Source of the DNA: Heptranchias perlo
Lineage: Eukaryota
Direction: 5' to 3'
DNA: 64,000 nt
NCBI RefSeq assembly: GCF_035084215.1
Contig: NC_090340.1
Coordinates: 14,694,001-14,758,000 of the forward strand
Shown: positions 934-48,867 of the stretch, piece after piece
How positions within the stretch are numbered: the first letter of the stretch is position 1
Layout: every line of letters starts with the position of its first letter
Notes under the pieces: model-generated
Seen by the model: the letters and a program-made list of their open reading frames with translations, nothing else
Database searches by the model: none
Told to the model about the DNA's origin: nothing
Program-made: the position numbers and the translations under genes

Positions 934-1228
934 CTGCACCAACCGCGCTGAAGATTCTCTCCAGGACATCTGTATCTCTGACTTGTGTGTGAAACGGCTG
1001 AGGTCTATCCGAGAAATTCCACCCTCCCTCGGTATGAAAATGGCGTAGTAACTGCGATAGGAATACAAAACATTCAATGGCAGATAACTGAAGTGCTGTA
1101 TGACGTTTCCTGCTCTTTGGAAGAGACGCAGCCTGTGCCGAGCGGTGCCAGTTACACCTGTTTGGTATCTCACATGCCGCTCGAGACTCCACCTGTGGTC
1201 ATCTACACGGTTACCAATTCTAACACAG
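934..1228 (+). pseudogene. IgSF receptor copy A: defective C1-set exon
   Basis: Homologous to the intact C1 exon at 22671-22982 (CETAEVYP...YTCLVSH). The acceptor is mutated (ccgcAA at 931-933), there are small deletions with a frameshift before the first Cys, and the core Trp is changed to Arg. The donor gt at 1229 is intact. Confidence 0.85.
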
Positions 1229-1313
1229 GTACGAGGCCAACAGTCCAAGAAGGAGAGCCAGCTACTGTTAAATTCTTAAACAGATATTTCATAAAGTTCG
1301 CTCATATTAATAA

Positions 1314-2387
1314 TAAGACCATAAGGCCACAAGAGATTGGAGCAGGAGTAGGCCATTCGGTTCCTCAAGCCTGCTCCGCCATTTAATGATATCATGGCTG
1401 ATCTGATTTTTACCTCAACTCCACTTTCCCGCCCTTTCCCCATATCCTTCGACTGCCTTGCTAATCAAAAATTTGTCTAACTCAGCATTGAATACATTCA
1501 ATGACTCAGCCTCCACAACTTTTTGGGGTAAAGAATTTCAAAAATTCACGATCCTCTGGGAGAAGAAATTCCCCCTCATTTCCGTCTTAAACAGGCGACT
1601 CCTTATTCTGAGACTATTCCCCCTAGTTTTAGATTCCCCCAAGAGGGGTAACATCCTTTCAGTATCTACCTATCGAGTCCCCTCAGAATCTTATATGTTT
1701 CAATAAGATCTCCTCTCATTCTTCTAAACTCCAAAGAGTACAGACCCAGCCTGTTCAATCTTTCCTCATCAGACAACCCTTCCATACCCAGAATCAACCT
1801 AGTGTACCTTCTCTGAATTGCCTCCAATGCAAGTATGTCCTTCCTAAAATAAGGGCACCAGGACTGTATGCAGTACTGCAGGTATGGTCTCACCAGCACC
1901 CTGTATAGTTGTAGCATGACATCCCTGCTTTTATGCTCCATCCCCCTAGAAATAAAGACCAATATTCCGTTTGCCTTCCAGATAACCTGCTGTACCTGTA
2001 TGTTGACTTTTTGTTTTCATGTACGAGGACACCCAGATCCCTCTGTACCAAAGCATTTTGTGGTATTTCTGCATTCAAATAATATTTTGTTTTTTTAAAT
2101 TTTCCTCCCATAGTGGATGACTTCACATTTTCGCACATTATATTCCATCTGCCAAATTTTCGACCATTCGCTTCACCTGTCAATATCCCTTTGCAAACAG
2201 TTTGTGTCCTCACCACAACTTGCTTTTCAACCTATCCTTGTATCATCAGCAAATTTGGCTACAAGGCACTCTGTTACTTCATCCAATCCATTGATATATA
2301 TCGTAAATAGTTAAGGCCCCAGCACTGATCCCTGCGGCACTCCAATAGTTACAGATTGTCATTTGAAAATGAACCTTTTATCCCGAC
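1314..2387 (-). mobile_element. CR1 LINE 3' part (RT C-terminus and 3' tail), interrupted by the provirus
   Basis: LYRVLVRPYLQYCIQSWCP...RRMRGDLIETYKIL and the typical CR1 3' end. The element resumes at 11233. Confidence 0.9.
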
Positions 2388-3133
2388 TGTTGGCCGGAGG
2401 TCACCGGTTACGGTTACTGGCTTAGTACACAGAGGAGAAGAGTCAATTTTCTCTTAATTCTCAATTCGCTTTATTAACGTTGTTAGATCATGTACATACC
2501 ACTTATACATCTGGTTAGATACAGGCATGCAGTTTACAGCAGGTTATACAGTTTTAAACTCAAACTAGGATTTAAACGCACACCCACTAGGTTTCTCTGA
2601 CTAACATTCCCTGAGAGGTCACAGAATAGAAAGGATATTTTATTACCCGGAAAGGAGAGCTGACGCTGGCCAGGCATTCCGTTCTCTTTCTCTTGACGTA
2701 GTCTCTATGTACCTGGCGTAGTCTCTACATCCCTGACGTAGGTTCTCCCACTTTCGCGATGGTTAGTCTCCGGAGTCTCGCACACAAACTGGCACCAAGC
2801 CTGCAATTCTTCAGTCTTATTCCTAAGTCTGTCTTTTCGAATGATGCTGTCTTCTCCTGTTGGCTCAGATTTGCTGGAGTGGTCGGTGTCATCCCCTGAT
2901 TGGCTCTGTTCCAAGAGATTAGGTAGCATCACCTCATTACTCCTTTTCTAAACAAGGACTGGTGTCTCATCACAGCTCCTTTGTGCTTAGAATCGTAACT
3001 AATTCAAACCGGTTCCGGCCAGCTCAGACCAGTGACTGAACTTCAGGTCACTTCAGTTCAAAAGTTAGTCTCTTTGCCTGGGTGTCAGCAATTCGAAATA
3101 AACTCAGTAGTTTTCTGCAGCCCCTGGCCAACA
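2388..3133 (-). repeat. 3' LTR of provirus
   Basis: tgttggcc...ggccaaca. Direct repeat of 10481-11227, with about 20 differences in the first ~260 bp by eye. AATAAA on the minus strand near 2470. Confidence 0.95.
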
Positions 3134-3146
3134 TCTCCCCCCTTTT
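3134..3146 (-). promoter_or_regulatory. Polypurine tract of provirus
   Basis: Minus strand AAAAGGGGGGAGA directly abuts the LTR. Confidence 0.9.
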
Positions 3147-3393
3147 GATCCAAATATGCTTATCTTAGGATCATTACTCTCCCTTTCTGTGTACCACTCC
3201 TGAGGTTGTCATTGTCTCCCAATGGGCACGTTACATCTGCGATAGTATATGTTCATAGAAAAAATATAAAAGGTTATTGGAAAAATATAAATGGTTATAG
3301 AAAAAATATTTTAAAAACATATAAAATACACTTCACACAGTGTCCTTATATTGATAATCGCTTCATCTGTTTCATTATAGCACCAACACTCAA

Positions 3394-5623
3394 TTATTGC
3401 AAAATTTCATTTTTCCACGTTCTAAGCTGATATACATTGAATATTTTATTTATTCGTTCACGGGATGTGGGCGTCGCCGGCGAGGCCAGCATTTATTGCC
3501 CATCCCTAATTGCCCTTGAGAAGCTGGTGGTGAGCCGCCTTCTTGAACCGCTGCAGTCCGTGTGGTGACGGTTCTCCCCCAGTGCTGTTAGGAAGGGAGT
3601 TCCAGAATTTTGACCCAGCGACAATGAAGGAACAGCGATATATTTCCAAGTCGGGATGGTGTGTGACTTGGAGGGGAACGTGCAGGTGGTGTTGTTCCCA
3701 TGTGCCTGCTGCTCTTTTCCTTCTAGATGATAGAGGTCGCGGGTTTGGCAGGTGCTGTCGAAGAAGCCTTGGCGAGTTGCTGCAGTGCATCCTGTGGATG
3801 GTACACACTGTAGCCACAGTTCGCCGGTGGTGAAAGGAGTGAATGTTTAGGGTGGTGGATGGGGTGCCAATCAAGCGGGCTGCTTTATCTTGGATGGTGT
3901 CGAGCTTCTTGAGTGTTGTTGGAGCTACACTCATCCAAGCAAGTGGAGAGTGTTCCATCACACTCCTGACTTGTGCCTTGGAGATGGTTGAAAGGCTTTG
4001 GGGAGTCAGGAGGTGAGTCACTCGCCGCAGAATACCCAGCCTCTGACCTGCTGTCGTTGCCACAGTATTTATATGGCTGGTCCAGTTAAGTTTCTGGTCA
4101 ATGGTGACCCCCAGGATGTTGATGGTGCGGGATTCGGCGATGGTAATGCCGTTGAATGTCAAGGGGAGGTGGTTAGACTCTCTCTTGTTGGAGATAGTCA
4201 TTGCCTGGCACTTATCTGGCGCGAATGTTACTTGCCACTTATTAGCCCAAGCCTGGATGTTGTCCAGGTCTTGCTGCATGCGGGCTCGGACTGCTTCATT
4301 ATTTGAGGGGTTGCGAATGGAACTGAACAATGTGCAGTCATCAGCGAACATTTCCATTTCTGACCTTGTGATGGAGGGAAGGTCATTGATGAAGCAGCTG
4401 AAGATGGTTGGGCCTCGGACACTGCCCTGACGAACTCAATGTCCTCAATGTCCCAGCAGTGTCCTGGGGCTGAGATGATTGGCCTCCAACAACCACTACC
4501 ATCTTCCTTTGTGCTAGGTATGACTCCAGCCATTGGAGAGTTTTCCCCCTGATTCCCATTGACTTCAATTTTACTTGGGCTCCTTGGTGCCACACACAGT
4601 CAAATGCTGCCTTGATGTCAAGGGCAGTCACTCTCACCTCACCTCTGGAATTCAGCTCTTTCGTCCATGTTTGGACCATGTTTGGACCATTGAATATGAC
4701 AAGTGTTAACGCACATAAAATCGCAACTGCAGCAGCATGTGATAAAATCCTGACCCATGGATGTTTTTGAACATTAGATTCCCAATGCCAAAACTTATCC
4801 CAGAACCCGGGGTCCCGTAGCAGTTCATCTGCTTTATCAGCATGAGTTTTAATTATTTTAGTTTGTTTCGTCCATTGATGAATTATCTCTTTGGCTTCCT
4901 CCGCTATTTGCGTCCAATCTGCAGTCAGGTGTGGAATGGGTGGTAGTTCGGGAGGAACATATTTCCGCAGATCTTGGTCTATATCTTTACGTTGGACTGT
5001 GAGGTTTTCGTTTATTACCATCCTCTTTATTGGCTGAGGCAGAACTTGTCCACCGACAACCAGGTCTGCGGTCACATTGTTAATGGCCACATTGTGTCCT
5101 TCCAGAGGGCACTGTTTCCATCCTTTATTATAGTTCATAGCCGCTGTGGCTATGTAATACGTTTGTCCCACAAGGGAGTATTGTCACTACCCCAGTCAAT
5201 ATTTACATCGGTGTGGTCCCAGTGGACCACAATTTTACCTCGACCGTCGCTCCCCGATTGTCGCTCCTTAAATGGACCCACAAATTGATTGATGAATTTT
5301 CCCTCTGGGATTACCGACTATGTCACCTCTAGAACTATGTTACATGAAAACTGTACTGCCACTCCCTCCGGTATACCCAAAGTCTTTCCCACGCACGCTA
5401 ACCCATCCACTCCCGTATAATACAAATTTAAATCCTCTCTTTTCCCTTTGTTGTTTCGGACTGTCTTATTCTGCAGAGTAAAGTTGTCCCTGGTCTCGGG
5501 ATATCCCTCCTTCATCGACACTGCTTCAGGCACGTTCATTCGGCGTGACGGCTCTGAGGCAGTTTCAACCGCAGTTCTGATGATGGTCAATCCGATAGCA
5601 ACAAAATGCATTATCCCCTTCAT
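3394..5623 (-). pseudogene. env: env remnant of provirus (signal peptide, internally deleted ectodomain, heptad, TM, short tail), split by a LINE
   Basis: Signal-like MKGIMHFVAIGLTIIRTAV at 5623. Then ...IAEEAKEIIHQWTKQTKIIKTHADKADELL...WVRILSHAAAVAILCALTLVIFN. Removing the LINE at its TSD continues the frame as VYQLRTWKNEILQ*. Confidence 0.7.
3445..4687 (-). mobile_element. 5'-truncated non-LTR retrotransposon (CR1/L2 group, second family) inserted in env
   Basis: RT motifs ALDIKAAFD, FADDCTL and WQVTFAPDKC. A-rich 3' tail. 10-bp TSD CATTGAATAT at 3435-3444 and 4688-4697. Confidence 0.9.
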
Positions 5624-5759
5624 TCTAGGCTGGACCTGTAATAAACAAGTGTAATTTCTGCTCTTATTTACTGTTTCTTTTAAGTACTATCATAAGTCCA
5701 GTCTCTCCATATACTGAGCCAGACCGTCCATATCCTGTTCCCAATTTGTTTCAGATTCT

Positions 5760-8379
5760 TACCGTCCATTTCTTCTAATCCACTTATTCCCTCTTTTTGT
5801 TTTATGTTCCTTTCGTTTTTTTCCTGGATTCGCTTCTGCATGGGAACGGACAGTATCAAATTTGTTTTCAATCACCTCCTCATCGGCCTGTAGCTGGTCC
5901 TGTTCTTGATCTCCCTGACCTTCAGAATTAGGTTTTTTAATTCTCCGTCTTTCTTTTGCTCCTCCGTTAAATCCATTTCTTTGACCTGCTTCTCTTTCTG
6001 GCCCCCGATTTCCCCAACCGGTGGCTGCCATTCCTGTCCACGTACAGCACCTCGTTTGGCTAGTTCATCAGCTTTACTGTTCCCTTTGGGGGAGAGTTTT
6101 GAATGAGCTTTCACTTTTGTGACCCCATATCCTTACCCCTGTGCTTCTTCAAAGATGTACCGTAATAGCGGGGCTGATGGAAGGGGCCTTCCATCCACTG
6201 AGACAAATCCCCTCACTTCCCATCGGGGCAAATGTTCTGTGAGGCTATTACAAACATACATGCTATCAGAATATATGACTGATCTGGGCGGAAAATTTCC
6301 GGGTGACCAACCACATATGCGACGGCTGCTAGTTCTGCTATCTGCGCACTCATCGTGTTAGGTAATTTCAGAGCCGCACTAAAGCTTTCCTGTCCGTGGT
6401 CATACTCCATGTGTTTCCCACAGCCAGTTCTCCTTTCCCCATCCTGTACTGATGAAGAGCCATCCTCAAAAATGTAAAAATAGGGTTCTTCCTTTCCTGT
6501 TTCCTTTGTCTTTCTGCTTTCAGGCCCCGTCTTACCCCCACCCTTTTGTTTTGATACAAATGGGCCCTTGGGCTCATTTGCTATCATTAATTGACACTCA
6601 TGTTTTTCTCCCTGATAAACTAAGTTGTCTGCTGACATAGTAGTGGTTTTTACCCCCTTTACAGTTATATTTCTCCCTTGCAGCAACAATGTCCATCTAG
6701 CGATTCTATTTTGGCTAACTGAACCATCCTTAATCCTTCCATCTAACAGTAGCTGTACTGGGGTGTGTTCTGTTAATACTGTAAGTGGGTTTAGTCCCAC
6801 TATATAGGTAAAATGCTGCACTGCCCAAAAGACAGCTAGCAAGTGCCTTTCGCATACTGTATACCCCTGCTCTACTGGTGAGAGCATACGTGAGGCGTAC
6901 GCTACTGGTCGTAATTTTCCGTGTGTCTCCTGTAATAGAACTGCCGAGAGGGTGGTGTCTGTGGTAGCCACCTCCAATGAAAATGGCTCCGTTGGATTTG
7001 GGGGTTTTAGAGCAGGCGCAGCAGCTTGTACTTGCTTTAGATCAGTCATGGCCTGGGTGTGTTTTGTTTTCCACTCCCAGGCCACATTCTTTTTTAATAA
7101 TTCCATCAGCGGGCCGCCTTTGTGGCAAATCCATCAATATGGTCCCTGCAATATCCCACCAACCCCAAGAAGGGCCTTAACCCTTTAACATCCCGCGGCA
7201 CAGGGATTCTGCCAACCGTCTCTACCCTTCGCTTTTCAATGTCCCTTTGTTCCGGCGTCCGAATCATTCCCATGTAAGTAACTTTTTGTTTCATGGTCTT
7301 CGCTTCTTTAGGGTTAATCTTTAATCCCAAGTCATGTAACTACTGCAGTAATTGACTTAGCAGTTGATAATGTTTCTTCTTGGTTTCAGTTTGTAGGAGG
7401 CCTCGAGAATCCTTTTAACCCTTCCCTCAGCCATTGGTGAAATATGGACGGGGAATTGTGAAACCCCTGCGGCAGGGCCGTCCATGTACATTGCTGTCCT
7501 TGGAAAGTAAATGAGAATTTATATTGACATTCCTTCTCCAGTGGAATAGTCCAAAAACCGTTACTTATGTCCAAAACCGTAAACCACTGTGCATCCTCAT
7601 TTTGTCGAACTACTGTCTCTGGGCTAGTTGCTACAGTAGGAGCTGTTAGCAGGTGACTTTATTTAATTCTCTGTAGTCTATCGTTAGTCGCCAGCTACCG
7701 TCGGGTTTCCTCACTGGCAAAATAGGTGAGTTATTAGTAGAAGCTATTGGTCTTAATATCCCTTGCTGCAGCAGACTCTGTATCACCTTCTCTATCTCTT
7801 CTTCTGCTTGCTTTGGGAAACCATACTGCTTCTGTGGTTTGGGGTCTGGACCTTGTACACACACTCCCGGTCATTTTCCCACAATCATGTTTATGTCGGG
7901 CAATTACTATTGAGTTTTGTACAATAATTTGTTGTACTTCACGATAGTTACTCATTTCTCCTGGTTCTATCCACATTTCCCCGATCGCGCATATCCTATC
8001 CTGATATTCCCCCATCGGGACGAATGTGTGATTCATACTGCCCATGCCCAAAGGCATTTGCCAAATCATACAATTAACAGGGTCGAAGCAAAATCCCGCT
8101 TTGGCCAAAAAGCCACTCCCTAATATATGTTCTTGTTCTCTAGGTAATTTAATAAGGACCACTGAATGGTCTATTACTATGTCTCCCACTCACTTGTGAA
8201 TGCCCTGTGAATCCGCTTCGAATAATTTTGTTTTGAATTTTCCAATCTTTGTCATTGATCTGAGTGGTGTTAACGGTGGTTCGGGATCCCCCTGTGTCCC
8301 AAAGGAATGTAAGAGGGCGGCCTCCGACCCTACCATTCACTAGGGGTCTCCCCGTGTCATCCAACTGCAGGTCACACAC
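5760..8379 (-). pseudogene. pol: pro-pol remnant: aspartic protease, RT, tether (degenerate RNase H), RNase H; integrase core missing
   Basis: Protease FLWDTGGSRT. RT motifs SPILPVRKPDGSWRLTIDYRELN and DISNGFW...LPQGFHNSPSIF. Tether RPVAYASRMLSPVEQGY..CERHLLAV. RNase H DGSS...SAQIAELAAV...KAHS..GNSKADELAK. Multiple frameshifts and stops. Confidence 0.9.
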
Positions 8380-8403
8380 CCATAACGGAGAGGGCTGAGA
8401 CCG

Positions 8404-10169
8404 TCACTGCAGTTCGGGGTACAACCCGGAACTTGGTGATATTGCTATCGTATCACACTGAGGACTTGGTCTATTCAGCCCTTCCACGGGTAGGCTCTGA
8501 TTTCTTCCCCGACCTGCATTCTCTCGTCTCGGGTTTGGGCAGTCTCTTGCGAAGTGTCCCTCTTGGCCACAGTTATAGCATTTGGACACCTCGCCTTGAG
8601 TTCTCCCCGTTCCCGAGGAGTTTCCTCTTCCTCTGCCTCTACCTCTTCCCACTGTCTGATAAGCTGGAGGGGGTCCCCCTGAGTAGGTCCCCTCCCTTCA
8701 TTTCTCCAGGTTATCGTCTGATCTTTAACAGGCATTGCTCTGTCCCCGGATGCCTTGGATCGTTTTGGTATTTCCCTTTCCCATACTCTAACCATCTTCC
8801 TACTTATCCAGGGTTCCGTATGTGTGTCATCAGCGGATTCAAACTGATCTAGTGCCCTCCTCGACTCCTCAGTGCCATGCGACACTAGTGTTCTCAGCCA
8901 TCGGTTCCTAACCTCCTGCTGTAAATTGTTCCTGTCTAAGTATGTGCCATAGACCACCTGAAACACCGCCCAAATGCGGGCTGAAAATACAGTGGGGTGT
9001 TCACCTTTTCTTTGATAGCATTTCATTAGCGCCTCCACTGGATCCCCTCTGTTATCGCCCATGACAGATAATACCTGGTCCTTTAAGGCCTCATTCGTGC
9101 TTCTACCAAGTTTTTGTTCCTCCGGGATGGCGGAGTGTATATGTGGGTGTAGGCACATTAGGATTAATTTTCTTTCCTCAGCATCGTCTAAGCCGTGTAT
9201 CGCTCTCTGTTGCCTGACTGCTAGGAATAACTCCCTAGGATCATCCCCAGGCGCACACATTCCAATATCTTTTGCAATAACCCTCAGTTCTTGTACCCCA
9301 AGTGGGGTGGAATATGTCATATCCTGGCCATCTTCCCCCATCTGTGCTCTAGTGGTTACAAGGGGGGCCATTGGGGCAGACGGTTTTTTTGGCTCTGGAA
9401 TATGCTGGCGGTGGGTCCCCTCGTGGAGGTTCCCCATCAGTGCTGCTGTATCTATCCGCCTCGTCTGCTAAATCGTCCCAATCTACATCCCCTTGACCAC
9501 TTTCTTCACCTCTTCCGGGTGTGAAAGCGCACAATATGCTCCTCTGTGCGGCTAGCTGATCTTGCAGCCTCCCTATCAGTTTCTGAAACTTTGTGTGATC
9601 GCCGGTACTACTCCTCTTCTCCTGAGCTGATCTGTGAATCACATTCATGCAGTTTTTAAATCACTACATTGTTGTTTCCATCTCTCCACCTCAGCTTTAG
9701 CTGCTTGGGCTTCTCCCTCTCTCTTACTCTTTTCATTCGTCAATTTTTCGCACTGTAACTGATATTGGTTCATGTGCATCAAATCTGCACTTCTCTGTCC
9801 ATGTAGATCAGTTACCTTCTTACTAAGGCGGTCTATCTCCTAACGGAATTTTTTATTCTCTTCCCCTAATCCGTCTCGGATTTTCTGTTGTTCCTCCCTC
9901 TCTCTCCTAGCCTGTTGTCGGCATTCTATCCATTCGTCAAGTAAACATCCGATTGCTACGGACTTCTGTATCTTTTAAAATTTCCTATCTGACATCTTTG
10001 TTTGCGCAATTCTCCAAAGGACCTCCCCAACAGGCGTTCCCTTGTCTCCAATGTGACCCGCATACTCCCCGTATTGCAGCCACTTCCCTATTACGTATTT
10101 TTGGAGGAGTCCCTTCCAGTCAAAACAGTCCAAGACCCCAGGGCTTGGAGATTTCCCTTTATTCGTCAT
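8404..10169 (-). pseudogene. gag: gag remnant with coiled-coil region, capsid-like region and CCHC zinc knuckle
   Basis: CYNCGQEGHFARDC knuckle, capsid-like segment QRKGEHPTVFSARI, and position between the 5' LTR and the protease. Frameshifted. Confidence 0.85.
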
Positions 10170-10221
10170 CTTATGTTATTAGCTATGAATTAACCCAAAC
10201 TCCTGTCCTCTGTGTACTTTG

Positions 10222-10480
10222 CCAATTCGGTTCGGCTCGAGTCTCCCGCTGACTCAACTGAGAGATTTATCCTCAGAGCCCCCTTGCCAAATTCGGTTCA
10301 ACTCGAGTCTCCCGCTGACTCCACGGAGAGATTTATCCTCAGAGCCGACCCAAATTCGGTTCGACTCGAGTCTCCCGCTGACTCAATGGAGAGATTTATG
10401 CTCATAGCCCACCCAAATTCGGTTTGACTCGAGTCTCCCGCTGACGCAACCGAGGGATTTATATCGAGTCTACCCAAATC
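10222..10480 (-). repeat. Four-copy 61-65-bp tandem array in the proviral leader, abutting the 5' LTR
   Basis: Units start near 10222, 10287, 10350 and 10413. Conserved core ttcggtt..ctcgagtctcccgctgac...gatttat plus a variable segment of about 11-16 nt. Confidence 0.9.
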
Positions 10481-11227
10481 TGTTGACCGGAGGTCACTGG
10501 TTACGGTTACTGGCTTAGTACACAGAGGAGAAGATTCAATTCTCTCTTTATTCTCAATTCACTTTATTAACGTTATTAGATCATGTACATACAGCTTATA
10601 TGTCTGGTTAGATCTAGGCATGCAGTTTACAGCAGGTTATACAGTTTTATACTCATACTAGGATTTAAACGCACACCCACTACGTTTCTCTGACGAACAG
10701 TCCCTGAGTGGTCACAGAGTAGAAAGGATATTATATTACCCGGAAAGGAGAGCTGACGCTGGCCAGGCGTTCCGTTCTCTCTCTCTCGACGTGGTCTCTA
10801 CGTCCCTGACATAGTCTCTACGTCCCAGACGTCGGGTCTCCCACTTTCGCGATGGTTAGTCAACGGAGTTTCGCGCACAAACTGGCACCAAGCCTGCAAT
10901 TCTTCAATCTTATTTCCAAGTCTCTCTTTTCAAATGATGCTGTCTTCTCCTGTTGGCTCAGATTTGCTGGAGTGGTCGGTGTCATCCCCTGATTGGCTCT
11001 GTTCCAAGGGGTTAGGTAGTATTAACTCATTACTCCTTTTCTAAATAAGGACTGGTGTCTCATCACAGCTCTTTTGTCCCTTAGAAGCGCAAATAATTCA
11101 AACCGGTTCTGGCCAGCTCAGACCAGTGACTGAACTCCCTGTCATTTCAGTTCAAAAGTTAGTCTCTTTGCCTGGGTGTCAGCAATTCGAAATAAACTCA
11201 GTAGTTTTCTGCAGCACCTGGCCAACA
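10481..11227 (-). repeat. 5' LTR of provirus
   Basis: tgttgacc...ggccaaca, a direct repeat of 2388-3133. Confidence 0.95.
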
Positions 11228-11232
11228 CCGAC

Positions 11233-15119: not shown

Positions 15120-18100
15120 TATTGGCATAGGGTAAATAAGATCAGAGAGATGAATGCGTGGCTCAAGGGTTGGAGTGGGAGAAGTGGGTTTCGATTCATG
15201 GGGTACTGGCACCAGTACTGGGGAAAGAGAGAGTCGTTCCGTTGGGATGCACCACACCTGAACCATGCTGGGACCAGAGTTCTAGCGAATCGAATGACTA
15301 GAGAGGTAGATCGGGCTTTAAATTAAATAAGGCGGGGTGGGGGTAGGGTCCAGGTGGAGATAAATCTACAATGCTAAAGAGAAAAGACAAAGAAGCAGTG
15401 CAGGAAAGTGATTGCGGTAAGGGTAACCAGATTGTGTCAGGAAGGGACAGAGTGTACAAACAAAAGAGTGCATTAACAAATAGGTCCGGCTAAGAAAAAA
15501 TGGTAATAAGACAAGTAGGGCCATAGTGCAAAACAATGTTAAGATGTCTAAAAACGATAAAACGACAAATGTAAAGGCACTGTATCTGAATGCACGAAGC
15601 ATTCGTAATAGGGTAGACGAATTAACAGCGCAAATAGTTGTAAACGGATATGATATAATTGCAATTTCACAGATATGGCTGCATGGTGACCAAGGCTGGC
15701 AGCTGAATATCCAAGGGTATTCGATGTTTAGGAAGGACAGGCAAAAAGGAAAAGGAGGTGGGGTGGCGTTGTTAGTAAAGGATGAAATCAGAGCCATAGT
15801 GAGAAAGGATATTGGCTCAGAAAAGCAAGATGTAGAATCCGTCTGGCTGGAGTTAAGAAGCACCAAGGGGCAGAAAACACTGGTGGGAGTTGTCTATAGG
15901 CCTCCAAACAGTACTGGTAATGTAGAGGATGGCATCAAACAGGAAATTAGAGATGCATGTAACAAGGGTACTACAGTAATCATGGGTGACTTTAATCTAC
16001 ATATAGACTGGCCAAATCAAATTAGCAATAATACTGTGGAGGATGAATTCCTCGAGTATGGACGAGATGGTTTTTTAGACCAGTACCTTGAGGAGCCAAC
16101 CAGGGAACAGGCTATCCTAGATTGGGTATTGTGCAATGAGAAGGGGTTAATTAATAATCTTGTTTTGCAGGGTCCTTTAGGGAAGAGTGACAATAACATG
16201 ATAGAATTCTTCATTAAGATGGAAAGTGAAGTAGTCCAATCCGAAACTAGGGTCCTATATCTAAATAAAGGAAACTACGAAGGTATGAGGAATGAGTTGG
16301 CCATGATAGATTTGGAAGCTTCATTAAAAGGCATGACAGTGGATAGGCAATCGCTAACATTTATGGAACAAATGCATGAATTGCAATAATTATACATTCA
16401 TTTCGGGTGCAAAAACACAAAAGGAAAATCGGCCCAAACATGGCTAACAAAATAAATTAAGGATAGTATTCGATCCAAAGAGGAGTCATATAAAGTTGCA
16501 AGAAAAGTATCAAGCCTGAGGATCAGGAGCAGTTTAGAATTCAGCAAAAACGGACCAAGAGATTGATTAAGACCGGAAAAATAGAGTATGAGGAAGCAAA
16601 ATAAAAGTGGACTGTAAAAGCTTCTACAAGTATGTAAAAAGAAAAAGATTAGTGAAGACAAACGTAGGCCCCAAACAATCAAAAACGGGAGATTTTATAA
16701 TGGGTTACAAGGAAATGGCAGAACAATTAAACAGAATCTTTGGTTCTGTCTTCATGGAAGAGTATACAAATAACTTCCCAGAAATATTAGGGAACTAAAG
16801 GTCTAGTGAGAAGGAGGAATTAAAGAAAATTAGTATTCGTAAAAAATAGTGCTGGAGAAATAAATGGGACTGAAAACCAATAAATCCCCAGGGCCTGATA
16901 ATCTGCATCCCAGAGTACTAAAAGAGGTAGCCATGGAAATAGTGGATGCATTGGTTGTCATCTTCCAAAATTCTATAGATTATGGAACAGTTCCTGCAGA
17001 TTGGTAGGTGGCAAATTAACACCACTATTTAAAAAGGAGGGAGAGAGAAAACAGGGAACTACAGACTGGTTAGTGTAACATCAGTAGTAGGGAAAATGCT
17101 AGATTCTATTTCCAAAGAATGTGATAACAGGACACTTGGAAAATATCAACGGGATTAGACAAAGTCAACATTGATTTATGAAAGGGAAATCATGTTTGAC
17201 AAAACTACTGGAGTTTTTTGAGTACGTAAGTGGTAGAATAGATAAGGGAGAACCAGTGGATGTGGTTTATTTGGATTTTCAGAAGGCCTTTGATAAAGTC
17301 CCACGTAACAGGTTAGTGTGCAAAATTAAAGCACATGGGATTGGTGGTAATATACTGGCATGGATTGAAAATTGGTTAACAGACAGGAAACAGAGAGTAG
17401 GAATAAATGGGTCTCTTTTGGGTTGGCAGAATTCAGTGCTTGGGCCCCAGCTATTCACAATATATATCAATGATTTGGAAGAGGGAACTAAATGTAATAT
17501 TTCCAAGTTTGCTGATGACACAAAACTAGGTGGGATCGTGAGTTGTGAGTGTGATGCAAAGAGGGTTCAAGGCGTTTTAGACAAGTTGAGTGAGTGGGCA
17601 AATATATGGCAGATGCAGTATAATGTGGATAAATGTGAAGTTATCCACTTCGGAAGGAAAAACAGAAAGCAGCGTATTATTTAAATGTAGATAGATTGGG
17701 AAATGTGATGTACAAAGGGACCTGGGTGTCCTTGTACACCAGTCACTGAAAGCAAACATGCAGGTGCAGCAAGCAGTTAGGAAGGCAAATGGTATGTTGG
17801 CCTTCATTGCAAGAGGATTTGATTAGAGTATCAAGGATGTCTTACTACAGTTATACAGGGCCTTGGTGAGACTAAACCTGGATTATTGTGTGTAGTTTTG
17901 GTCTCCTTACCTAAGAAAGGATATACTTGCCATAGAGGGAGTGCAGCGAAGGTTCACCAGACTGATTCTTGGGATCGCAGGACTGTCGTATGAGGAGAGA
18001 TTGGGTTGACTCAGCCTGTATTCACTCGAGTGCAGAAGAATGAGAGGGGATCTCATTGAAAGATATGAAATTCTGACAGGTCTAGACAGACTGGATGCAG

Positions 18101-20317: not shown

Positions 20318-20740
20318 ACGCCCCATCCACCACGCCAAACATTCACTCCCTTCACCACCGGCGCACTGTGGCTGCAGTGTGTACCATCAACAGGATGCAC
20401 TGCAGCAATTCGCCAAGGCTTCTTCGACAGCACCTCCCAAACCCGCGACCTCTACCACCTAGAAGGACAAGGCTAGCAGGCACATAGGAACAAGACCACC
20501 TGCACGTTTCCCTCCAAGTCACACACCATCCCGACTTGGAAATATATCACCGTTCCTTCATCGTCGCTGGTTCAAAATCCTGGAACTCACTACCGAATAG
20601 CACTGTGGGAGAACCTTCACTAATGAACTGCAGCGGTTCAAAAAGGCGGCTCACCACCACCTTCTCAAGGGCAATTAGGGATGGGCAATAAATACTGGCC
20701 TTGCCAGCGACGCCCACATCCCATGAACAAATGAAAAAAA
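20318..20740 (+). mobile_element. 3' fragment of the second LINE family
   Basis: NIHSLHHRRTVAAVCTINRMHCSNSPRLLRQHLP plus the same 3' tail as 3445-4687. Confidence 0.85.
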
Positions 20741-21854: not shown

Positions 21855-22670
21855 GTAAGTGACTGGGGTGAGTGGGAACTTCCAAATGTATCCAATGTAA
21901 CAGTATAAAACATTTATATTAATACATTTACAGTCAAACTCAATGTTACTCCAATATCTCTGTACACAGCTGTTAATTACACGGCACGATATGGCGCTTC
22001 ATTTGCTGAGTTGTGTGAAATTCCATCAATATTAACCAGAGTAAGTAACATGTTACTGGATTCATCTCAACATGTAGTTTCCACATCAGACTTCTGATGA
22101 GGGAAGGTGCGGAACAAATTCGAAACATATAGATGACTGACTGAAGATCTTTCATATTAATGCGCCTCCCCCGCCATATACAGGGCTCTTAACCTATTTT
22201 AGAAGCTTTGTTTGTCCCTGTCGCTGTCAGTGGGGTTTAACGGTCACTCCTGAAATTAATGCTCACATACTGACAGGCTGGTTCGAATGGCGGATTTCAG
22301 ATAAGCTACAATTAACTGTTAATTATTGGATTTACTCAACACATAGAACCATGAACCAGAACTTTGCCGCCGCTTTCCCCTGCAATAAACGAATCATTCC
22401 CCAGAGATTGTGTTGCTGAAGCCTTCTGAGGTTGAGCGGAATGTAATTTCCCTGAGCCGATCCCATGCTCCTGCTGTGTGGGCTTCCCGATATCCACTCG
22501 GGCCCTCCTTTCAGTATCAGTAATACACAGATTACTCGTTTCTCTCTTGGGGAGACAGACAGACAGAGCTAGAGATCCTAACAGAGAAGGACAGAGGATG
22601 CCATTCTTCTCCCACATCTTCTGTTACCTATCTCCCCAGAAACCTGATTTTCCACATTTTCTGTCCACAG

Positions 22671-22982
22671 CTGCTCCAACTCCACTGAAGATTGTCTCCA
22701 GGACACCCGAGAGCAAACCATCTGCTTCTCTGACTCTTGTGTGTGAAACGGCTGAGTTTTACCCGGAGGATTTCACCCTCACTTGGTATAAAAATGGCGT
22801 CAAAACCACAACTGGGATAAATATGACTAAACGGCGGAACACTGAGGGTCTGTATGAAGTTTCCAGCACTTTGGAAGTGACGAAGCCGAAGCGGAATGGG
22901 TCTGTTTACACCTGTTTGGTAACTCATGTCGCCCTCCAGACTCCCGCCATTGCAACCTACACTGTCAGCAATTCCGACTCAG
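22671..22982 (+). CDS. Copy B exon 3: C1-set Ig domain
   Basis: Acceptor ctgtccacag, donor gtaagg, phase 1-1. Reads LTLVCETAEFYPEDFTLTWYKNG...GLYEVSSTL...YTCLVTHVAL. Confidence 0.93.
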
Positions 22983-24164
22983 GTAAGGAGCCAACAGTCG
23001 AAGAAGCGAGGTCAGCTACTGTTAAACACTGAAAGGATATTTGATAGGGTTTGTTCATATTAATAATCAGGAAGGTGATTCACGGATAATTCACGGAAAA
23101 GTCATGAGAAATTTCAACAAAACATAAAATGCATATTTTAATGTAAAACATCATTGACAACGGGTAGTAAAAGCTGAAGTTATATCATCCGCCACACAAA
23201 CGTATTCAGTCAAACCTTATTAGCCTTCAAATTCCTTTATTTGATGTAAAGCAAATATAAGCAGAAGTTGAGTTTTGTTATCCGATTATATTTCATATTC
23301 TGCTTATTATTTATCACATTTTATTTATTTTTGTTTCGATGTTAAAATGGTTTTATTCGTTATTATTATCTAGCTTTCCTGCAACAGGGTGATTCCCAGG
23401 AGCTACATTTAAGTTGTCTGCTCTCGGGTTTCTCCCAATGCAGTTCCCGATCCTGACCCCCCTTTTCAGCTACTCCCAGTGAAGAGTTCTGAAATTAATT
23501 ATCTGACCAAATGAATCCCTCACCCTTCCATGGCACAACGGATTGGAATGGATCTGCCTCATACATTTCATTTAAACGGTGCTCACAACCTGGCTGCAGT
23601 TCTGCCGGTTACACCGTTTTATTAAAAGCTATTTGCCTGGTCAGGCGACAGTGAATAAACCATCGCGCGTTGATCTCCTACTTTGCGATATTCTTACCTC
23701 AATAAATACAGTGCAGTGTAGATATGTGAATTGGGAGTTTTAACCGATTTCTGCAATTCGGCATTTTGTCCGGCAACGGTGAAACGATTGTCATCGAATT
23801 GCCCGCGATTTCATCCAACAATAAATAAAGAACATGAGAAAAGTCAAGGGTAACAACAAACCATTCGGTCTAGGGAAACATCCCTCTCGTATTCTACCTC
23901 TTCTAAAATAGTGTTTCAAAAGTCATAAATTCAGTACCCCTCCTCGAAGATAATTCCAAAAAGGTCTCATCCATTTCAGACATTTGAGAAATTCCTTCCA
24001 ACATTATATCTAAAAAAAGTAACATTTTTAATTTATTGCCGTTCTACACTGTGCAGTTGCTGAAAGCATCATTACTTTAACCAAAAAACGCTCTTGCGGC
24101 ACCTTTTTAGGAAACGCCCGCCATAATGTACAACTCAATATATATGCTCCTATTATTCTTGCAG

Positions 24165-28456: not shown

Positions 28457-29918
28457 ACCATAAGACCATAAGAGATAAGAACAGGAGTAGGCTATTCGGC
28501 CCCACGAGCCTACTCCGCCATTTAATGAGATCATGGCTGATCTGATTTTTACCTCAACTCCACTTTCCCGCCCTTTCCCCATATCATTTGACTCCCTTGC
28601 TGATCAAAAAATAGTCTAACTCAGCCTTGAATGTATTCCAATTACTCAGCCTCCACAGCATTTTGGGATAAAGAATTCCAAAAATTCACGACCCTCTGAG
28701 AGAAGAAATTCCTCCTCCTTTCCATCTTAAACGGGCGACCCCTTATTCTGAGACTATGCCCCGTAGTTTTAGATTCCCCCATGAAGGATAATATCCTCTC
28801 AGCATCTAACCTATCGAGTCCCCTCAGAATCTTGTCTGCTTCAATAAGATCTCCTCTCATTCTTCTAAACTCCAATGAGTATAGTCCCAACCTGTTCAAT
28901 CTTTCCTCATAAGAAAATGCTTCCATACCCGGAATCTACCTAGTGAACCTTCTCTGAACTGCCTCCAATGCAAGTATGTCCTTCCTTAAATAAGGGCACC
29001 AGAACTGTACGCAGTACTCCAGGTGTGGTCTCACCAGTACCCTGTAGAGTTGTAGCATGACTTCCCTGCTTTTATACTCCATCCCCCCAGGAATAAAGGC
29101 CAATATTCCGGATTACCTGCTGCACCTGTATGTTGACTTTTTGTGTTTCATGTACGAGGACACCAAGATCCCTCTGTACCGCAGCATTTTGTAGTATTTC
29201 TCCATTCTAATATTATTTTGCGTTTTTATTTTTCCTCCCAAAGTGGATGACTTCACATTTTCCCACATTATATTCCATCTGCCAAATTTTTGCCTATTTG
29301 CTAAACCTGTCAATATCCCTTTGCAGACACTTGTATCCTCATCGCAACTTGCTTTTCCATCTATCTTTGTATCATCAGCAAATTTGGCCACAAGACTCTC
29401 TGTTCCTTCATCCAAGTCATTGATATATATTGTAAATAGTTGAGGCCCCAGCATTGATCCCTGCGGCACCCCATTAGCTAGAGATTGCCATTTTGAAAAT
29501 GACCCTTTTATCCCGCCTCTTTGTTTTCTGTTAGTTCGCCAATCCTCTATCCATGCCAGTAAATTACCCACAACATCATGAGCTCTTATCTTGTGCAGTA
29601 TTTTTTTTACGTGGCACCCAATCGAACGCCTTTAGGAAATCCAAATATACTGCATCCATTGGTTCCCATTTATCCATCCTGCACTTTACTTCCTCAAAGA
29701 ACTCTATTAAATGTGTCAGACATGATTTCCCCTTCATAAAACCATGTTGACTCTCCTTGATTGTATTATGAGTCTCCAAATGTCCTGCTACTACTTCCTT
29801 AATAATGGATTCTAGCATTTTCCCAATGACAGATGTTAGGATAACTGGTCTCTAGTTTCCTGCTTTCTGTCTCACTCCCTTCTTGAATAGTGGTCTTACG
29901 TTTGCGGTTTTCCAATCC
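28457..29918 (-). mobile_element. 5'-truncated CR1 LINE
   Basis: GVPQGSMLGPQLFTIYINDL..KFADDTKI and RRMRGDLIE. Same family as 1314-2387. Confidence 0.92.
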
Positions 29919-43919: not shown

Positions 43920-46900
43920 TGAAATAAGACACATCTTAGGTCAAGGACAGAACCTATTTTGGCAGAGTTAAGAAACAATGTAGATGCCATTATACTAGTG
44001 GGTGTATTCTGCAGGCCACCAACTAATGGGAAGGATATAGAGGAACAAATTTGCTGGGAAATTACAGAGAGGTGCAAGAGCCATCGAGTAGTGACAATGG
44101 GGACATCAATCACCCCAATATAGTCTGAGATAGTAATGGTGCAAGCAGCAGAGAGCGAGAAGAATTTCTGCAGTGTGTTCAGGAGAACTTTCTTGATCAG
44201 TACGTTTCCTGCCCAAAGAGGAAGAAGGCATTGCTGGTTCTGGTTCAGGGGAATGAGGTGGGACAAATTGAGCAAGTTTTGGTCGCGGAACATTTAGGGA
44301 ACAATGTTCACAGTATCATAAGTTTTAGATTAGCTATGGCAAAGGACAAGGGGCAATATAGAATAAAAATACATAATTGTTGGAGGGCCAATTTCAGGGG
44401 GTTGAGAACGGATCTGGCCCGGGGAAATTGAAATCAAAGATTGGCAGGCAAAACTGTAAAGCAAAAATGGGCGGCCTTTAAACGGGAGATGGTTCGGGTA
44501 CAGTCTACATACATTCCCACGAGGGGGAACGGTAGAGAAACTAAAGCCAGAGCTCCCTGGATGACGAAAGAGATAGAGAGTAAGATGACGCAGAAAAGGG
44601 GGGTGTATGACAGATGTCACGTTGATAAAACAAGTGAGGACCAGGCTGAATATAGAAAGTTCAGAGAGGAAGTTAAAAAAAAGAAATGAGGGGCAAAAAG
44701 AAAGTATGAGAATAGACTGGCAACTAATATAAAAGGGAATCCAAAAGTCTTCCACAGGCATATAAATAGTAAAGGGGTAGCAAGAGGAGGGGTGGGGCCG
44801 ATTCGGGAAATAAAAGGAGACATATGCAGGGTGGCAGAGGGATTGGCTGAGGTACCAAGTGAGTACTTTGCATTTGTCTGTACCAAGGGAGAAGATGCTG
44901 CCAAAGTCATAGTACAAGTGGAGGTAGATGAGATAATAAATAGAATAAATATGATAAAGAGGAGGTATTAGAAAGGCTGGCTGTATTTAAATTAGATAAG
45001 TCACCAGGTCCGGATAAGATGCAACCTACATTGCTGAGGGAAATACGGGTAGAAATTGCCGGGGTACTAGCCATAATCTTCCAATCATCATAGAGTCATA
45101 GAGTCATAGAGTTATACGGCACGGATAGAGGCCCTTCGGCCCATCGTGTCCACGCCGGCCATCAAGCCCTGTCTACTCTAATCCCATATTCCAGCATTTG
45201 GTCCGTAGCCTTGTATGCTTTGGCATTTCAAGTGCTCATCCAAATGCTTCTTGAATGTTGTGAGGGTTCCTGCCTCCACAACCCTTTCAGGCAGTGAGTT
45301 CCAGACTCCAACCACTCTCTGGGTGAAAAAGTTCTTTCTCAAATCCCCTCTAAACCTCCCGCCTTTTACCTTGAATCTATGTCCCCTTGTTATAGAACCC
45401 TCAACGAAGGGAAAAAGCTCCTTAGTATCCATCCTATCTGTGCCCCTCATAATTTTGTACACCTCGATCATGTCCCCCCTCAGCCTCCTCTGCTCCAAGG
45501 AAAACAAACCCAATCTTCCCAGTCTCTCTTCATAGCTGAAGCGCTCCAGCCCTGGTAACATCCTGGTGAATCTCCTCTGCACCCTCTCCAAAGCGATCAC
45601 ATTCTTCCTGTAGTGTGGCGACCAGAACTGCACACAGTACTCCAGCTGTGGCCTAACCAGTGTTTTATACAGCTCCATCATAACCTCCTTGCTCTTATAT
45701 TCTATGCCTCGGCTAATAAAGGCAAGTATCCCATATGCCTTCTTTACCACCTTATCTACCTGTTCCGCCGCCTTCAGGGATCTGTGAACTTGCACACCAA
45801 GATCCCTCTGACCCTCTGTCGTGCCTAGGGTCCTCCCATTCATTGTGTATTCCCTTGCCTTGTTAGTCCCTCCAAAGTGCATCACCTCGCACTTTTCCGG
45901 GTTAAATTCCATTTGCCACTGTTCCGCCCATCTGACCAACCCATCTATATCGTCCTGCAGACTGAGGCTATCCTCCTCGCTATTTACCACCCTACCAATT
46001 ATTTTTTGATCCTTAGATATGGTGGTAGTATCAGAGGACTGGAGAATTGCAAATGTTACACCCTTGTTCAAAAAAGGGTGTAAGGATAAAGCCGGCAACT
46101 ACAGGCCAGTCAATTTAACGTCGGTGGTGGGGAAATTTTTAGAAACAATAATCCTGCGCAAAATTAACAGTCACGTGGTCACGTGTGGCTTTACTAAAGA
46201 AAGCCAGCACAGATTGTTTCAAGGCAAATCGTGCTTAACTAACTTGATTGAATTATTTGATGAGGTAACAGAGACGGTTGATGAGGGCAATGTGGTTGAT
46301 GTGGTGTATATGACTTCCAAAAGGCGTTTGTTAAAGTACCACATAATAGGCTTGTCAACAAAGTTGAAGCCCATTGAATAAAAGGGGCAGTGGCAGCATG
46401 GAAACGAAATAGGCAAGTGACAGGAAACAGAGAGTAGCGGTGAACGGTTGTTTTTCGGACTGGAGGGAGTAATACAGTATTGTTCCCCAAGTATTGACAC
46501 TTGGACCACCGCTTTTCTTGATAAATATTAATGACTTGGACTTGGGTGTAAAGGGCACAATTTCAAAATTTGAAAATGGAACAAAGCTTGGTGGTGTAGT
46601 GAAAGTGAGGAGGATAGTGATAGACATCAAAAGGACCGAGACAGGTTGATGGAATGGGCGGACACGTGACAGATTAAATTTAACGCAGAGAAGTACGAAG
46701 TGACACATTTTTTGGGAAAAACGAGAAGTGGCAATATAAACTAAAGGGTGCAATTCTAAAGCGAGTGCAGGGACAGAGAGACCTGGCGATATTTGTGCAC
46801 AAATTGCCGAAGGTGGCAGGGCAGGTTGAGAAAGTGGCTAAAAAAGCGCATGGGATCCTGAGCTTTATAAATTGAGGCATGGAGTACAAAAGAAAGGAAG

Positions 46901-47661: not shown

Positions 47662-48437
47662 ATTTTTTTCTATATTCGTTCATGGGATGTGGGCGTCGCT
47701 GGCGAGGCCGGCATTTATTGCCCATCCCTAATTGCCCTTGAGAAGGTGGTGGTGAGCCGCATTCTTGAACCGCTGCAGTCCGTGTGGTGAAGGTTCTCCC
47801 ACTGTGCTGTTAGGAAGGGAGTTCCAGGATTTTGACCCAGCGACGATGAAGGAACGGCGATATATTTCCAAGTCAGGATTGTGTGTGACTTGGAGGGGAA
47901 CGTGCAGGTGGTGGTTTTTCGCATGTGCCTGCTGCTCTTGTCCTTCTAGGTGGCAGAGGTCGTGGGTTTGGGAGGCGCTGTCGAATAAGCCTTGGCAAGT
48001 TGCTGCAGTGCATCCTGTGGATGGTACACAATGCAGCCACTGTGCGCCAGTGGTGAAGGGAGTGAATGTTTAGGGTGGTGGATGGGGTGCCAATCAAGTG
48101 GGCTGCTTTATCTTGGATGGTGTCGAGCTTCTTGAGTGTTGTTGGAGCTGCACTCATCCAAACAAGTGGAGAGTGTTCCATCACACTCCTGACTTGTGCC
48201 TTGTAGATGGTGGAAAGGCTTTGGGAAGTCAGGAGGTGAGTCACTCGCCACAGAATACCCAGCCTCTGACCTGCTCTCATAGCCACAGTATTTATATGGC
48301 TGGTCCAGTTAAGTTTCTGGTCAATGGTGACGCCCAGGATGTTGATGGTGGGGGATTCGGCGATGGTAATGCCATTGAATGTCATGGGGAGGTGGTTAGA
48401 CTCTCTCTTGTTGGAGATGGTCATTGCCTGGCACTTA
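47662..48437 (-). mobile_element. 3' fragment of the second LINE family
   Basis: Nearly identical to 3445-4215. Confidence 0.9.
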
Positions 48438-48867
48438 AGAGGCATCCAGAGGCCGCTGCTAGAAAATGCCGGTCGGATGAGCACAGGGGAGCGCTCGACA
48501 ACGTGATCCCCGTCCGCACTCGCTCTCTTGACCTATGCGTGAACAGTGGTCACGTGAGCAAAGAACGGCGGGCTGAGAAGGCGGTGCACATCCCAGCAAG
48601 AATCCACGCCTTGAGAAGGGGAGAAACGAGGAGAAACTGGCAAAGTAACCAGACGAAAACAGTTCACTCTGAGAGGCATGTATACCATATTAAATAACTG
48701 TCCCATAAAACCAACCCGGCAAATTTTACAGATGTTAATGCAATAATTAACAAGATCACTCGGAAAGTGGCGACTGCGATACGAATTCTTCAACCATACA
48801 TATAAACCTTGGAAAATTGAAGAAACATGCTGCATTTTACGACCACTGCACGTTCCAAAGAGATTCA

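What the first reader, a model, noticed from the sequence alone, without database searches (positions are those of the whole stretch)
2388..11227. Provirus with retrovirus-type double RNase H but gypsy-like tether: candidate lokiretrovirus-like ERV
Seen: an RT with LPQGFHNSPSIF. It is followed by a Ty3/gypsy-looking RNase H lacking its catalytic Asp (LEVATT where TDAS is expected), then a second retroviral-type RNase H (DGSS, SAQIAEL, KAHS..GN..AD). Gag has a coiled coil and one CCHC knuckle, an env follows pol, and the TSD is 5 bp. Known: tether plus RNase H is the retroviral arrangement. Lokiretroviruses are described as a sister lineage of retroviruses in non-mammalian vertebrates. Inference: this is such an element in a probable chondrichthyan. 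Whether it is already catalogued is unknown to me.
Basis: partly seen in the sequence, partly recalled or inferred. Interest (0 to 1): 0.74.

Follow-up and report, generated by a model that had tools for sequence, protein, structure and literature searches.

The report
Shark retrovirus fossil with Loki-type envelope
This is a broken retrovirus copy, likely from a shark, whose polymerase groups with ordinary early-branching retroviruses rather than with lokiretroviruses, yet whose envelope gene likely belongs to the measles-F-like type that lokiretroviruses use, a hint that this envelope may be older than the familiar retroviral one.

Summary
The provirus is real: minus strand 11227..2388, 92%-identical LTRs, 5-bp TSD, coiled-coil Gag with one CCHC, RT, Asp-less tether, second RNase H, env.

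It is not a lokiretrovirus. RT sits on the canonical-retrovirus side (100/97) and AU tests reject grouping with Loki (p 0.0006-0.006). It is not gypsy either. Its Pol kin are frog, coelacanth, turtle and ostrich 'NYNRIN-like' Pols and, by eye, the published elephant-shark CmiERV lineage I (clade III, SnRV-related). Tether plus RNase H is ordinary there.

The unusual part is env. It has no gamma-type motifs. Its horn-shark homologues (66-78% identical) carry the conserved motif block of Loki's paramyxovirus-F-like Env, whereas CmiERV-I has a gamma-type env. That rests on motifs; folds and HMMs gave nothing. The scan noted similar shark proviruses on other DNA. Verdict: new variant of a known kind.

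The parts
11228..11232 (.). 5-bp target site duplication (CCGAC), 5' side
10481..11227 (-). 5' LTR, 747 bp, TG...CA
   Evidence: 92% identical to the 3' LTR
10217..10472 (-). Leader with four tandem copies of a 63-66 bp unit; no recognisable tRNA primer-binding site next to the LTR
   Evidence: family D2; by eye
8404..10169 (-). gag, broken by stops and frameshifts: N-terminal coiled coil, a DWxxLxxxAxxY motif shared with SnRV Gag, capsid region (inferred from position), one CCHC knuckle at about 8533-8583
8401..8409 (-). In-frame gag/pol junction Gln-UGA-C, likely a leaky read-through stop
   Evidence: the same junction read by eye in CmiERV lineage I; SnRV has UAG-G
8100..8403 (-). Aspartic protease (DTG motif), frameshifted
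   Evidence: (RVP E 0.016, weak)
7076..7852 (-). Reverse transcriptase, frameshifted; the YxDD active-site stretch is missing near 7398
   Evidence: other copies hold extra sequence at this point
6636..7075 (-). Tether (degenerate gypsy-type RNase H lacking the first catalytic Asp)
6046..6480 (-). Second, retroviral-type RNase H, frameshifted
5760..5985 (-). Stubs on either side of a deletion near 5927 that removed the integrase core (stub identity inferred)
   Evidence: relatives' Pol matches end at about 5911-5938; no integrase motifs; loose ends at 5923-5929 in 4 of 4 runs
4688..5623 (-). env, 5' part: likely signal peptide, an internal deletion near 5183, then a beta-rich region, a heptad-like helix, a Trp-rich stretch and a transmembrane helix (all read from sequence); likely Loki/F-type
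3445..4687 (-). LINE fragment inserted into the env transmembrane region, flanked by a 10-bp duplication
   Evidence: RVT_1 E 4e-13; two more copies in the window, 90-94% identical
3394..3444 (-). env, short 3' tail after the LINE
   Evidence: sequence
3134..3146 (-). Polypurine tract
2388..3133 (-). 3' LTR, 746 bp
2383..2387 (.). 5-bp target site duplication (CCGAC), 3' side

Best explanation
This is a decayed, non-coding provirus whose polymerase groups with early-branching canonical retroviruses, likely the clade III lineage of the elephant-shark CmiERV-I, and whose envelope gene is likely of the paramyxovirus-F-like type used by lokiretroviruses. The likely life cycle of the parent virus: the LTR drives transcription; Gag-Pol is made by read-through of an in-frame UGA-C stop (inferred); reverse transcription uses RT with an inactive tether and a second, active RNase H (layout shown, activity inferred from retroviral biology); integration leaves a 5-bp duplication (shown); entry uses an F-like class I fusion protein rather than a gamma-type Env (inferred from motifs). 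After entering the germ line this copy lost its RT active site, its integrase core and part of env, and took up a LINE (shown).
For: Pol placement: the window RT lies on the canonical side at 100/98, 100/97 with foamy and delta references added, and 100/99 for RT+tether. Loki is a separate clade at 100/99 in all three. AU tests reject union with Loki. Nearest Pols are named records from bullfrog, Xenopus, coelacanth, loggerhead turtle and ostrich plus unnamed contigs. CmiERV lineage I, read by eye in Han 2015 Dataset 1, shares the RT motifs, the LEVA tether, CERHLLA, the Gag DWxxL motif, leader repeats and the Gln-UGA junction; Han placed it with SnRV. Env: no immunosuppressive domain or CX6CC in any of 6 frame readings, while 4 of 4 gamma/delta controls have both. 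The only 2 hits among 791 candidates are horn-shark proteins, 66-78% identical to the window's env pieces. One of them matches a three-part pattern written from Loki Env. That pattern hits 1 of 423 proteins held and 0 of 20,000 shuffles. By eye, 7 of 7 published Loki Envs that reach the region carry parts 1 and 2, and 6 of 7 carry part 3 (8 of 23 places shown). The window keeps part 3 at 5171. The family is multi-copy: 4 of 4 runs laid (four coded organisms, 4 of 22 listed) cover 30 of 30 bins.
Against: The window copy has lost two of the three env motif parts, so the F-type call rests on homologues; the part it keeps is the weakest (63 of 20,000 shuffles, and one unrelated hit elsewhere in the window). 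The pattern was written after I had seen both sides, and no Loki Env could be aligned by a program. Pfam gave no fusion-protein hit for the window pieces or the horn-shark proteins, nor did the PDB. The Atlas pointed to class III fusogens instead. The horn-shark proteins are gene models that lack a fusion peptide. The trees hold no ERV-L/ERV-S, alpha-, beta- or lentiviruses, fish foamy-like ERVs, Odin or CmiERV-I. The base of the canonical side is unresolved: lineage+SnRV (p 0.44, 0.32) and lineage+foamy (p 0.38) are not rejected, and the lineage itself was not recovered as one clade. Loki references were labelled by motif, not by accession.
Confidence: 0.75

Rival explanations
1. It is a true lokiretrovirus, the first in a cartilaginous fish.
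For: Loki-type env motifs in homologues; a tether closer to Loki than to SnRV or class I; relatives' integrases score close to Loki (five Loki integrases 200-225 bits against 105-141 for SnRV, class I and foamy; two other fish-type ERV integrases score 191-223). Loki was reported in 0 of 3 chondrichthyan genomes, so it would be new.
Against: RT lacks the Loki motif. Three trees exclude it from Loki and three AU tests reject the union. The RNase H does not join the Loki+foamy group (85/75, weak). The integrase tree is unresolved.
Confidence: 0.03
2. It is an ordinary member of the snakehead-retrovirus (SnRV) clade, and an F-like env is simply the unrecognised normal state of that clade.
For: It shares with SnRV a coiled-coil Gag with one CCHC, the DWxxL motif, an in-frame stop between gag and pol, and RT motifs. 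SnRV Env also lacks gamma-type motifs and by eye has an F-like layout. Lineage+SnRV is not rejected. Han 2015 grouped CmiERV-I with SnRV. Clade III RTs are abundant in sharks (2843 loci in 6 genomes).
Against: With RT+tether+RNase H, SnRV joins class I to the exclusion of this lineage at 100/100. The integrase C-termini differ: MLVIN_C in SnRV, SH3_Tf2/p58_C in 4 of the 6 relatives scanned (P0026 is ambiguous, P0054 has neither). Similarity between horn-shark and SnRV Env is not significant (hhalign E 0.043; 23 of 500 shuffles as high, a delta control 31 of 500).
Confidence: 0.3
3. The env is a class III fusion protein (chuvirus, rhabdovirus or herpes gB type), not an F-type one.
For: Atlas feature search ranks PF24664 clusters first: 0.92 for the window piece and 0.93 for the horn-shark protein.
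Against: The same lists include arenavirus and ISAV glycoproteins, so the signal looks like generic viral glycoprotein. The window query fell below the tool's recognition bar. There is no Pfam hit to PF24664. The cysteine spacing matches Loki Env.
Confidence: 0.07
4. It is an env-bearing Ty3/gypsy retrotransposon (errantivirus-like) that gained a second RNase H on its own.
For: The tether scores well on gypsy-type RNase H profiles, and F-type envs are common in errantiviruses.
Against: The gypsy references form a separate clade at 100/99-100/100. That study found no intact vertebrate ERVs homologous to its invertebrate elements.
Confidence: 0.02

Closest known systems
CmiERV lineage I of the elephant shark (Han 2015, PMC4422223)
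   Same: By eye: RT motifs, LEVA tether, CERHLLA, coiled-coil Gag with the DWxxL motif and one CCHC, leader tandem repeats, Gln-UGA gag/pol junction, cartilaginous-fish host.
   Different: CmiERV-I has a gamma-type env (LQNR immunosuppressive domain and CX6CC, by eye) and a clear primer site; this element has neither gamma motif. Not compared by program.
Snakehead retrovirus and clade Huo / class III ERVs (Xu 2018, PMC6001957)
   Same: Gag layout, in-frame gag/pol stop, RT motifs, tether plus RNase H, env without gamma-type motifs.
   Different: UAG-G versus UGA-C junction; a different integrase C-terminus in relatives; SnRV groups with class I apart from this lineage in the longest alignment; no accessory ORFs were recognised here.
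Lokiretroviruses (Wang and Han 2021, PMC7947760)
   Same: Dual RNase H with a well-kept tether; env motif block (through homologues); integrase of relatives similar by score; a coiled-coil region at the front of gag.
   Different: RT is outside the clade (AU p 0.0006-0.006); no Loki RT motif; RNase H not in the Loki+foamy group; Loki was found in 0 of 3 cartilaginous fish.
Foamy viruses (Env structure: Fernandez 2024, PMC11468914)
   Same: Early-branching canonical retroviruses whose Env is F-like; a sister position is not rejected.
   Different: Foamy tethers score 0-8 bits against this tether, and there is no detectable env similarity. From my own knowledge, foamy Gag has no CCHC and Pol is made from a spliced RNA.

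Membership tests
Lokiretrovirus | RT inside the Loki clade, sister to canonical retroviruses | tested here: not met
   AU
Lokiretrovirus | Tether plus second RNase H | tested here: met
   (not specific: MLV has it too)
Lokiretrovirus | RNase H groups with Loki and foamy (group I) | tested here: not met
   weak support (85/75)
Lokiretrovirus | Env similar to Mononegavirales F | tested here: inconclusive
   Motif pattern met in a homologue; no Pfam, PDB or fold support
Lokiretrovirus | RxKR cleavage site and fusion peptide in Env | not testable with these tools
   The region is missing from the window copy and from both horn-shark models
Lokiretrovirus | Integrase close to CGIN1/NYNRIN | tested here: inconclusive
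   Integrase deleted in this copy; relatives' tree unresolved and NYNRIN itself not included
Canonical Retroviridae | RT inside the canonical retrovirus clade | tested here: met
   100/97, 100/99
Canonical Retroviridae | LTR-gag-pro-pol-env-LTR with PPT and TSD | tested here: met
Canonical Retroviridae | tRNA primer-binding site after the 5' LTR | tested here: inconclusive
   None recognised by eye; probably lost in this copy
SnRV clade / clade Huo (class III) | Pol groups with SnRV | tested here: inconclusive
   Not rejected, but not recovered; SnRV+class I at 100/100
CmiERV lineage I | Same Pol and Gag motifs and gag/pol junction | tested here: met
   By-eye reading; no program comparison
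CmiERV lineage I | Gamma-type Env (immunosuppressive domain, CX6CC) | tested here: not met
   controls 4 of 4 positive; env is partly deleted, but the stretch before the membrane anchor is present
Gamma-, epsilon-, deltaretrovirus and Spumaretrovirinae | RT inside one of these groups | tested here: not met
   class I+delta 100/99 and foamy 100/100 exclude the window; fish foamy-like ERVs not included
Ty3/gypsy (Metaviridae) | RT inside gypsy; single active RNase H | tested here: not met
Odin retrotransposons | Sister to Loki, no env | not tested
   No Odin sequence held; the element has an env and lies on the canonical side

The most novel reading that the evidence does not exclude
This lineage is among the earliest-branching canonical retroviruses and keeps the ancestral retroviral envelope, an F-like fusogen shared with lokiretroviruses and foamy viruses. 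The gamma-type Env of familiar retroviruses would be a later replacement, caught within one Pol lineage: F-type here, gamma-type in CmiERV-I. That would favour scenario 3 of Wang and Han's four origins of env.
Probability: 0.35. Interest if true: 0.75.

Novelty: new variant of a known kind. Interest (0 to 1): 0.5.

Why it matters
Wang and Han left four scenarios open for where retroviral env came from, because only lokiretroviruses had an F-like Env; foamy Env was later shown to be F-like too. A third, canonical lineage with a Loki-type env makes the question testable: compare env and Pol trees across Loki, foamy, SnRV and this family. Matching trees would mean F-like entry is ancestral; conflict would mean env swapping between lineages. 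The copy itself is dead, and its Pol type is already catalogued.

Tried and rejected
No genome is held for this window, so the LTR search for other members was not possible. AlphaFold models were unusable: horn-shark Env pLDDT 31, SnRV Env 39; Foldseek with them found nothing beyond a self-hit. Pfam and PDB searches on env and capsid were empty. The metagenome scan gave one unrelated gypsy-type element. Viral-contig scans found no Loki and only SnRV for the lineage alignment. No RNA holder was listed. The read table was cut (560 rows not shown), so it could not show whether other copies share the UGA. The first tether comparison was in the wrong frame and was redone. P0138 was mislabelled Loki in the integrase tree; it groups with the lineage and is left out of the Loki score range. 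The AU test of the lineage alone did not finish. P0128 and P0104 were dropped from the first RT tree for short RT cover, P0137 from the RNase H tree, and 12 of 43 rows from the RT AU tests for speed. CmiFLERV and XtrFLERV sequences were not found in the supplement parts read, so identity with those shark and frog foamy-like ERVs is excluded only by motif contrast with other FLERVs. PMC9972966 (cartilaginous-fish foamy ERV) is not held.
Full report
Observation. The element runs on the minus strand from 11227 to 2388. Its LTRs (10481-11227, 2388-3133) begin TG, end CA and are 92% identical, with CCGAC on both flanks and a polypurine tract at 3134-3146. LTR divergence is K2P 0.084. That gives about 19 million years at the mammalian rate, or ten times that at the shark rate assumed by Han, so the age is poorly fixed. 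Pfam finds a CCHC knuckle, a weak protease, RT pieces, a gypsy-type RNase H-like domain and a second RNase H. In the first of these an Ala stands where gypsy proteins have the DAS aspartate.

The copy is dead. No YxDD lies in any of the 3 frames of the RT region, and no integrase motif follows RNase H. Env has an internal deletion near 5183 and a LINE fragment with a 10-bp duplication at 3445-4687. Gag and pol hold many stops and frameshifts. Contigs from four coded organisms (4 of 22 listed runs) cover all 30 bins of 4700-10200 at mostly 90-99% identity. Some carry extra sequence at the RT and integrase deletions. So this is a multi-copy family, and those deletions are not shared by all its copies.

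Host. The only 2 env hits among 791 candidates are Heterodontus francisci gene models, 66-78% identical to the window's env pieces. A shark-like host is likely (inference).

Pol placement. Published Loki RTs read PFGYxNSP/PFGYINxG where this element reads LPQGFHNSP, which is nearer to SnRV. I built trees from stored proteins and fetched retrovirus genomes; Loki references were labelled by motif. The window lies on the canonical-retrovirus side at 100/98 (41 rows), 100/97 with foamy and delta references (43 rows) and 100/99 for RT+tether (27 rows). Loki and gypsy form separate clades in each. AU tests reject window+Loki (p 0.0006) and lineage+Loki (p 0.005; p 0.006). They do not reject lineage+SnRV (0.44, 0.32) or lineage+foamy (0.38). 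With RNase H added, SnRV joins class I at 100/100 apart from this lineage. The nearest Pols are 'NYNRIN-like' or 'gypsy integrase-like' records of bullfrog, Xenopus, coelacanth, turtle and ostrich; they form a basal grade, not a supported clade. The trees lack ERV-L/S, alpha-, beta- and lentiviruses, fish foamy-like ERVs and Odin.

The Pol type is known. Reading Han's Dataset 1 by eye, CmiERV lineage I shows the same RT motifs, the LEVA tether, CERHLLA, a coiled-coil Gag with DWxxL and one CCHC, leader repeats, and gag and protease in one frame across Gln-UGA-C. The window has the same junction, while SnRV has UAG-G. UGA-C is a leaky stop context (my own knowledge), so read-through is the likely route to Gag-Pol. 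Han placed lineage I with SnRV. Clade Huo spans all major vertebrate lineages, and class III RT loci are abundant in sharks. Tether plus RNase H is the general retroviral layout. The tether here is, however, better kept than most: 78-90 bits to Loki, 38-74 to gypsy, 44 to SnRV, 22-51 to class I and 0-8 to foamy.

Env. The window's env has no immunosuppressive domain or CX6CC, while 4 of 4 gamma/delta controls do; CmiERV-I has both by eye. The horn-shark homologue P0219 keeps the region deleted in the window. It matches a three-part pattern written from Loki Envs (YxLKxVxNVG; HWxCP...CGL...C; GxxW/YxVxT) with the Loki spacing. The full pattern hits 1 of 423 proteins held and 0 of 20,000 shuffles. 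By eye, 7 of 7 Loki Envs that reach the region carry the first two parts and 6 of 7 the third (8 of 23 places shown). The window keeps only the third, weakest part. Loki Env is reported to resemble paramyxovirus F, so an F-like env is the likely reading.

Against that reading: the pattern was written after seeing both sides; Pfam, PDB and AlphaFold gave no support; and the Atlas ranked class III fusogens first, in lists that also held unrelated viral glycoproteins. SnRV Env looks F-like by eye and lacks gamma motifs, but its similarity to the shark protein is not significant.

Novelty. Lokiretroviruses were reported in 0 of 3 cartilaginous fish; this finding does not change that. I found no paper describing an F-like env on an SnRV-related or CmiERV-I-type Pol. 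Searches: 0 papers; 1 listed; the passages read do not describe it; listings. The library lacks most subscription journals, and Repbase could not be searched, so the family may be catalogued as ERV4 or class III. Two earlier AI notes of this scan describe shark proviruses with an F-like env on other DNA. I saw them after reaching my reading and do not count them as support.

Papers seen. PMC7947760: main text parts 1-3 of 4, supplement searches and supplement parts 67, 68, 70, 71. PMC9040795: parts 1-2 of 4; the figure showing host range is not held, so I cannot say whether the 2022 screen found Loki in sharks. PMC4422223: part 1 of 2 and supplement 1 part 1 of 3. Passages only: PMC6001957, PMC9447858, 10.1101/2023.10.26.564294, PMC12193657, PMC4131045, PMC9967133, PMC12690878, PMC5512871, PMC12583693, PMC11468914, PMC13709493, PMC11089739. 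Unseen supplements of PMC5512871 and PMC6001957 may list this lineage.

Verdict. A real but dead provirus; not a lokiretrovirus; a known kind of basal clade III Pol with a likely Loki-type F-like env. New variant of a known kind, interest 0.5. If the F-like env proves ancestral across the lineage, interest would be about 0.75.

Noticed in passing
window 982-1386 (+) and 22436-23032 (+): Two similar immunoglobulin C1-set exons (Pfam C1-set E 1.5e-15 for the second; the first, decayed, has no hit). The provirus likely sits in a duplicated Ig-superfamily gene cluster.
   Followed up: partly
L002 6131-9535 (snakehead retrovirus env): SnRV Env lacks gamma-type motifs and by eye has an F-like layout; Pfam names no fusion family. 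My searches found no paper saying so.
   Followed up: partly
P0033, P0200 (ostrich), P0117 (turtle): A sauropsid branch of this Pol lineage; P0033 is a full-length Pol frame with a changed RT active site, and the ostrich record is close to it, which might mean a co-opted gene.
   Followed up: no
P0025 cluster (Aquarana, Lithobates): 24 cluster members, many with full-length 1218-aa Pol frames on several chromosomes, suggesting a recent expansion of this lineage in ranid frogs.
   Followed up: no
window 10217-10472 and 2694-2746 / 10787-10839: Four 63-66 bp tandem repeats in the leader, and short 20-bp-period repeats inside both LTRs.
   Followed up: no
window 15484-16389, 20321-20740, 29113-29631, 45178-46098, 47666-48532, 58770-59339: Several LINE fragments, two of them 90-94% identical to the one inserted in env.
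   Followed up: no
L002 pol, between RNase H and integrase: SnRV Pol has about 200 extra residues here that the relatives of the window's element lack.
   Followed up: no
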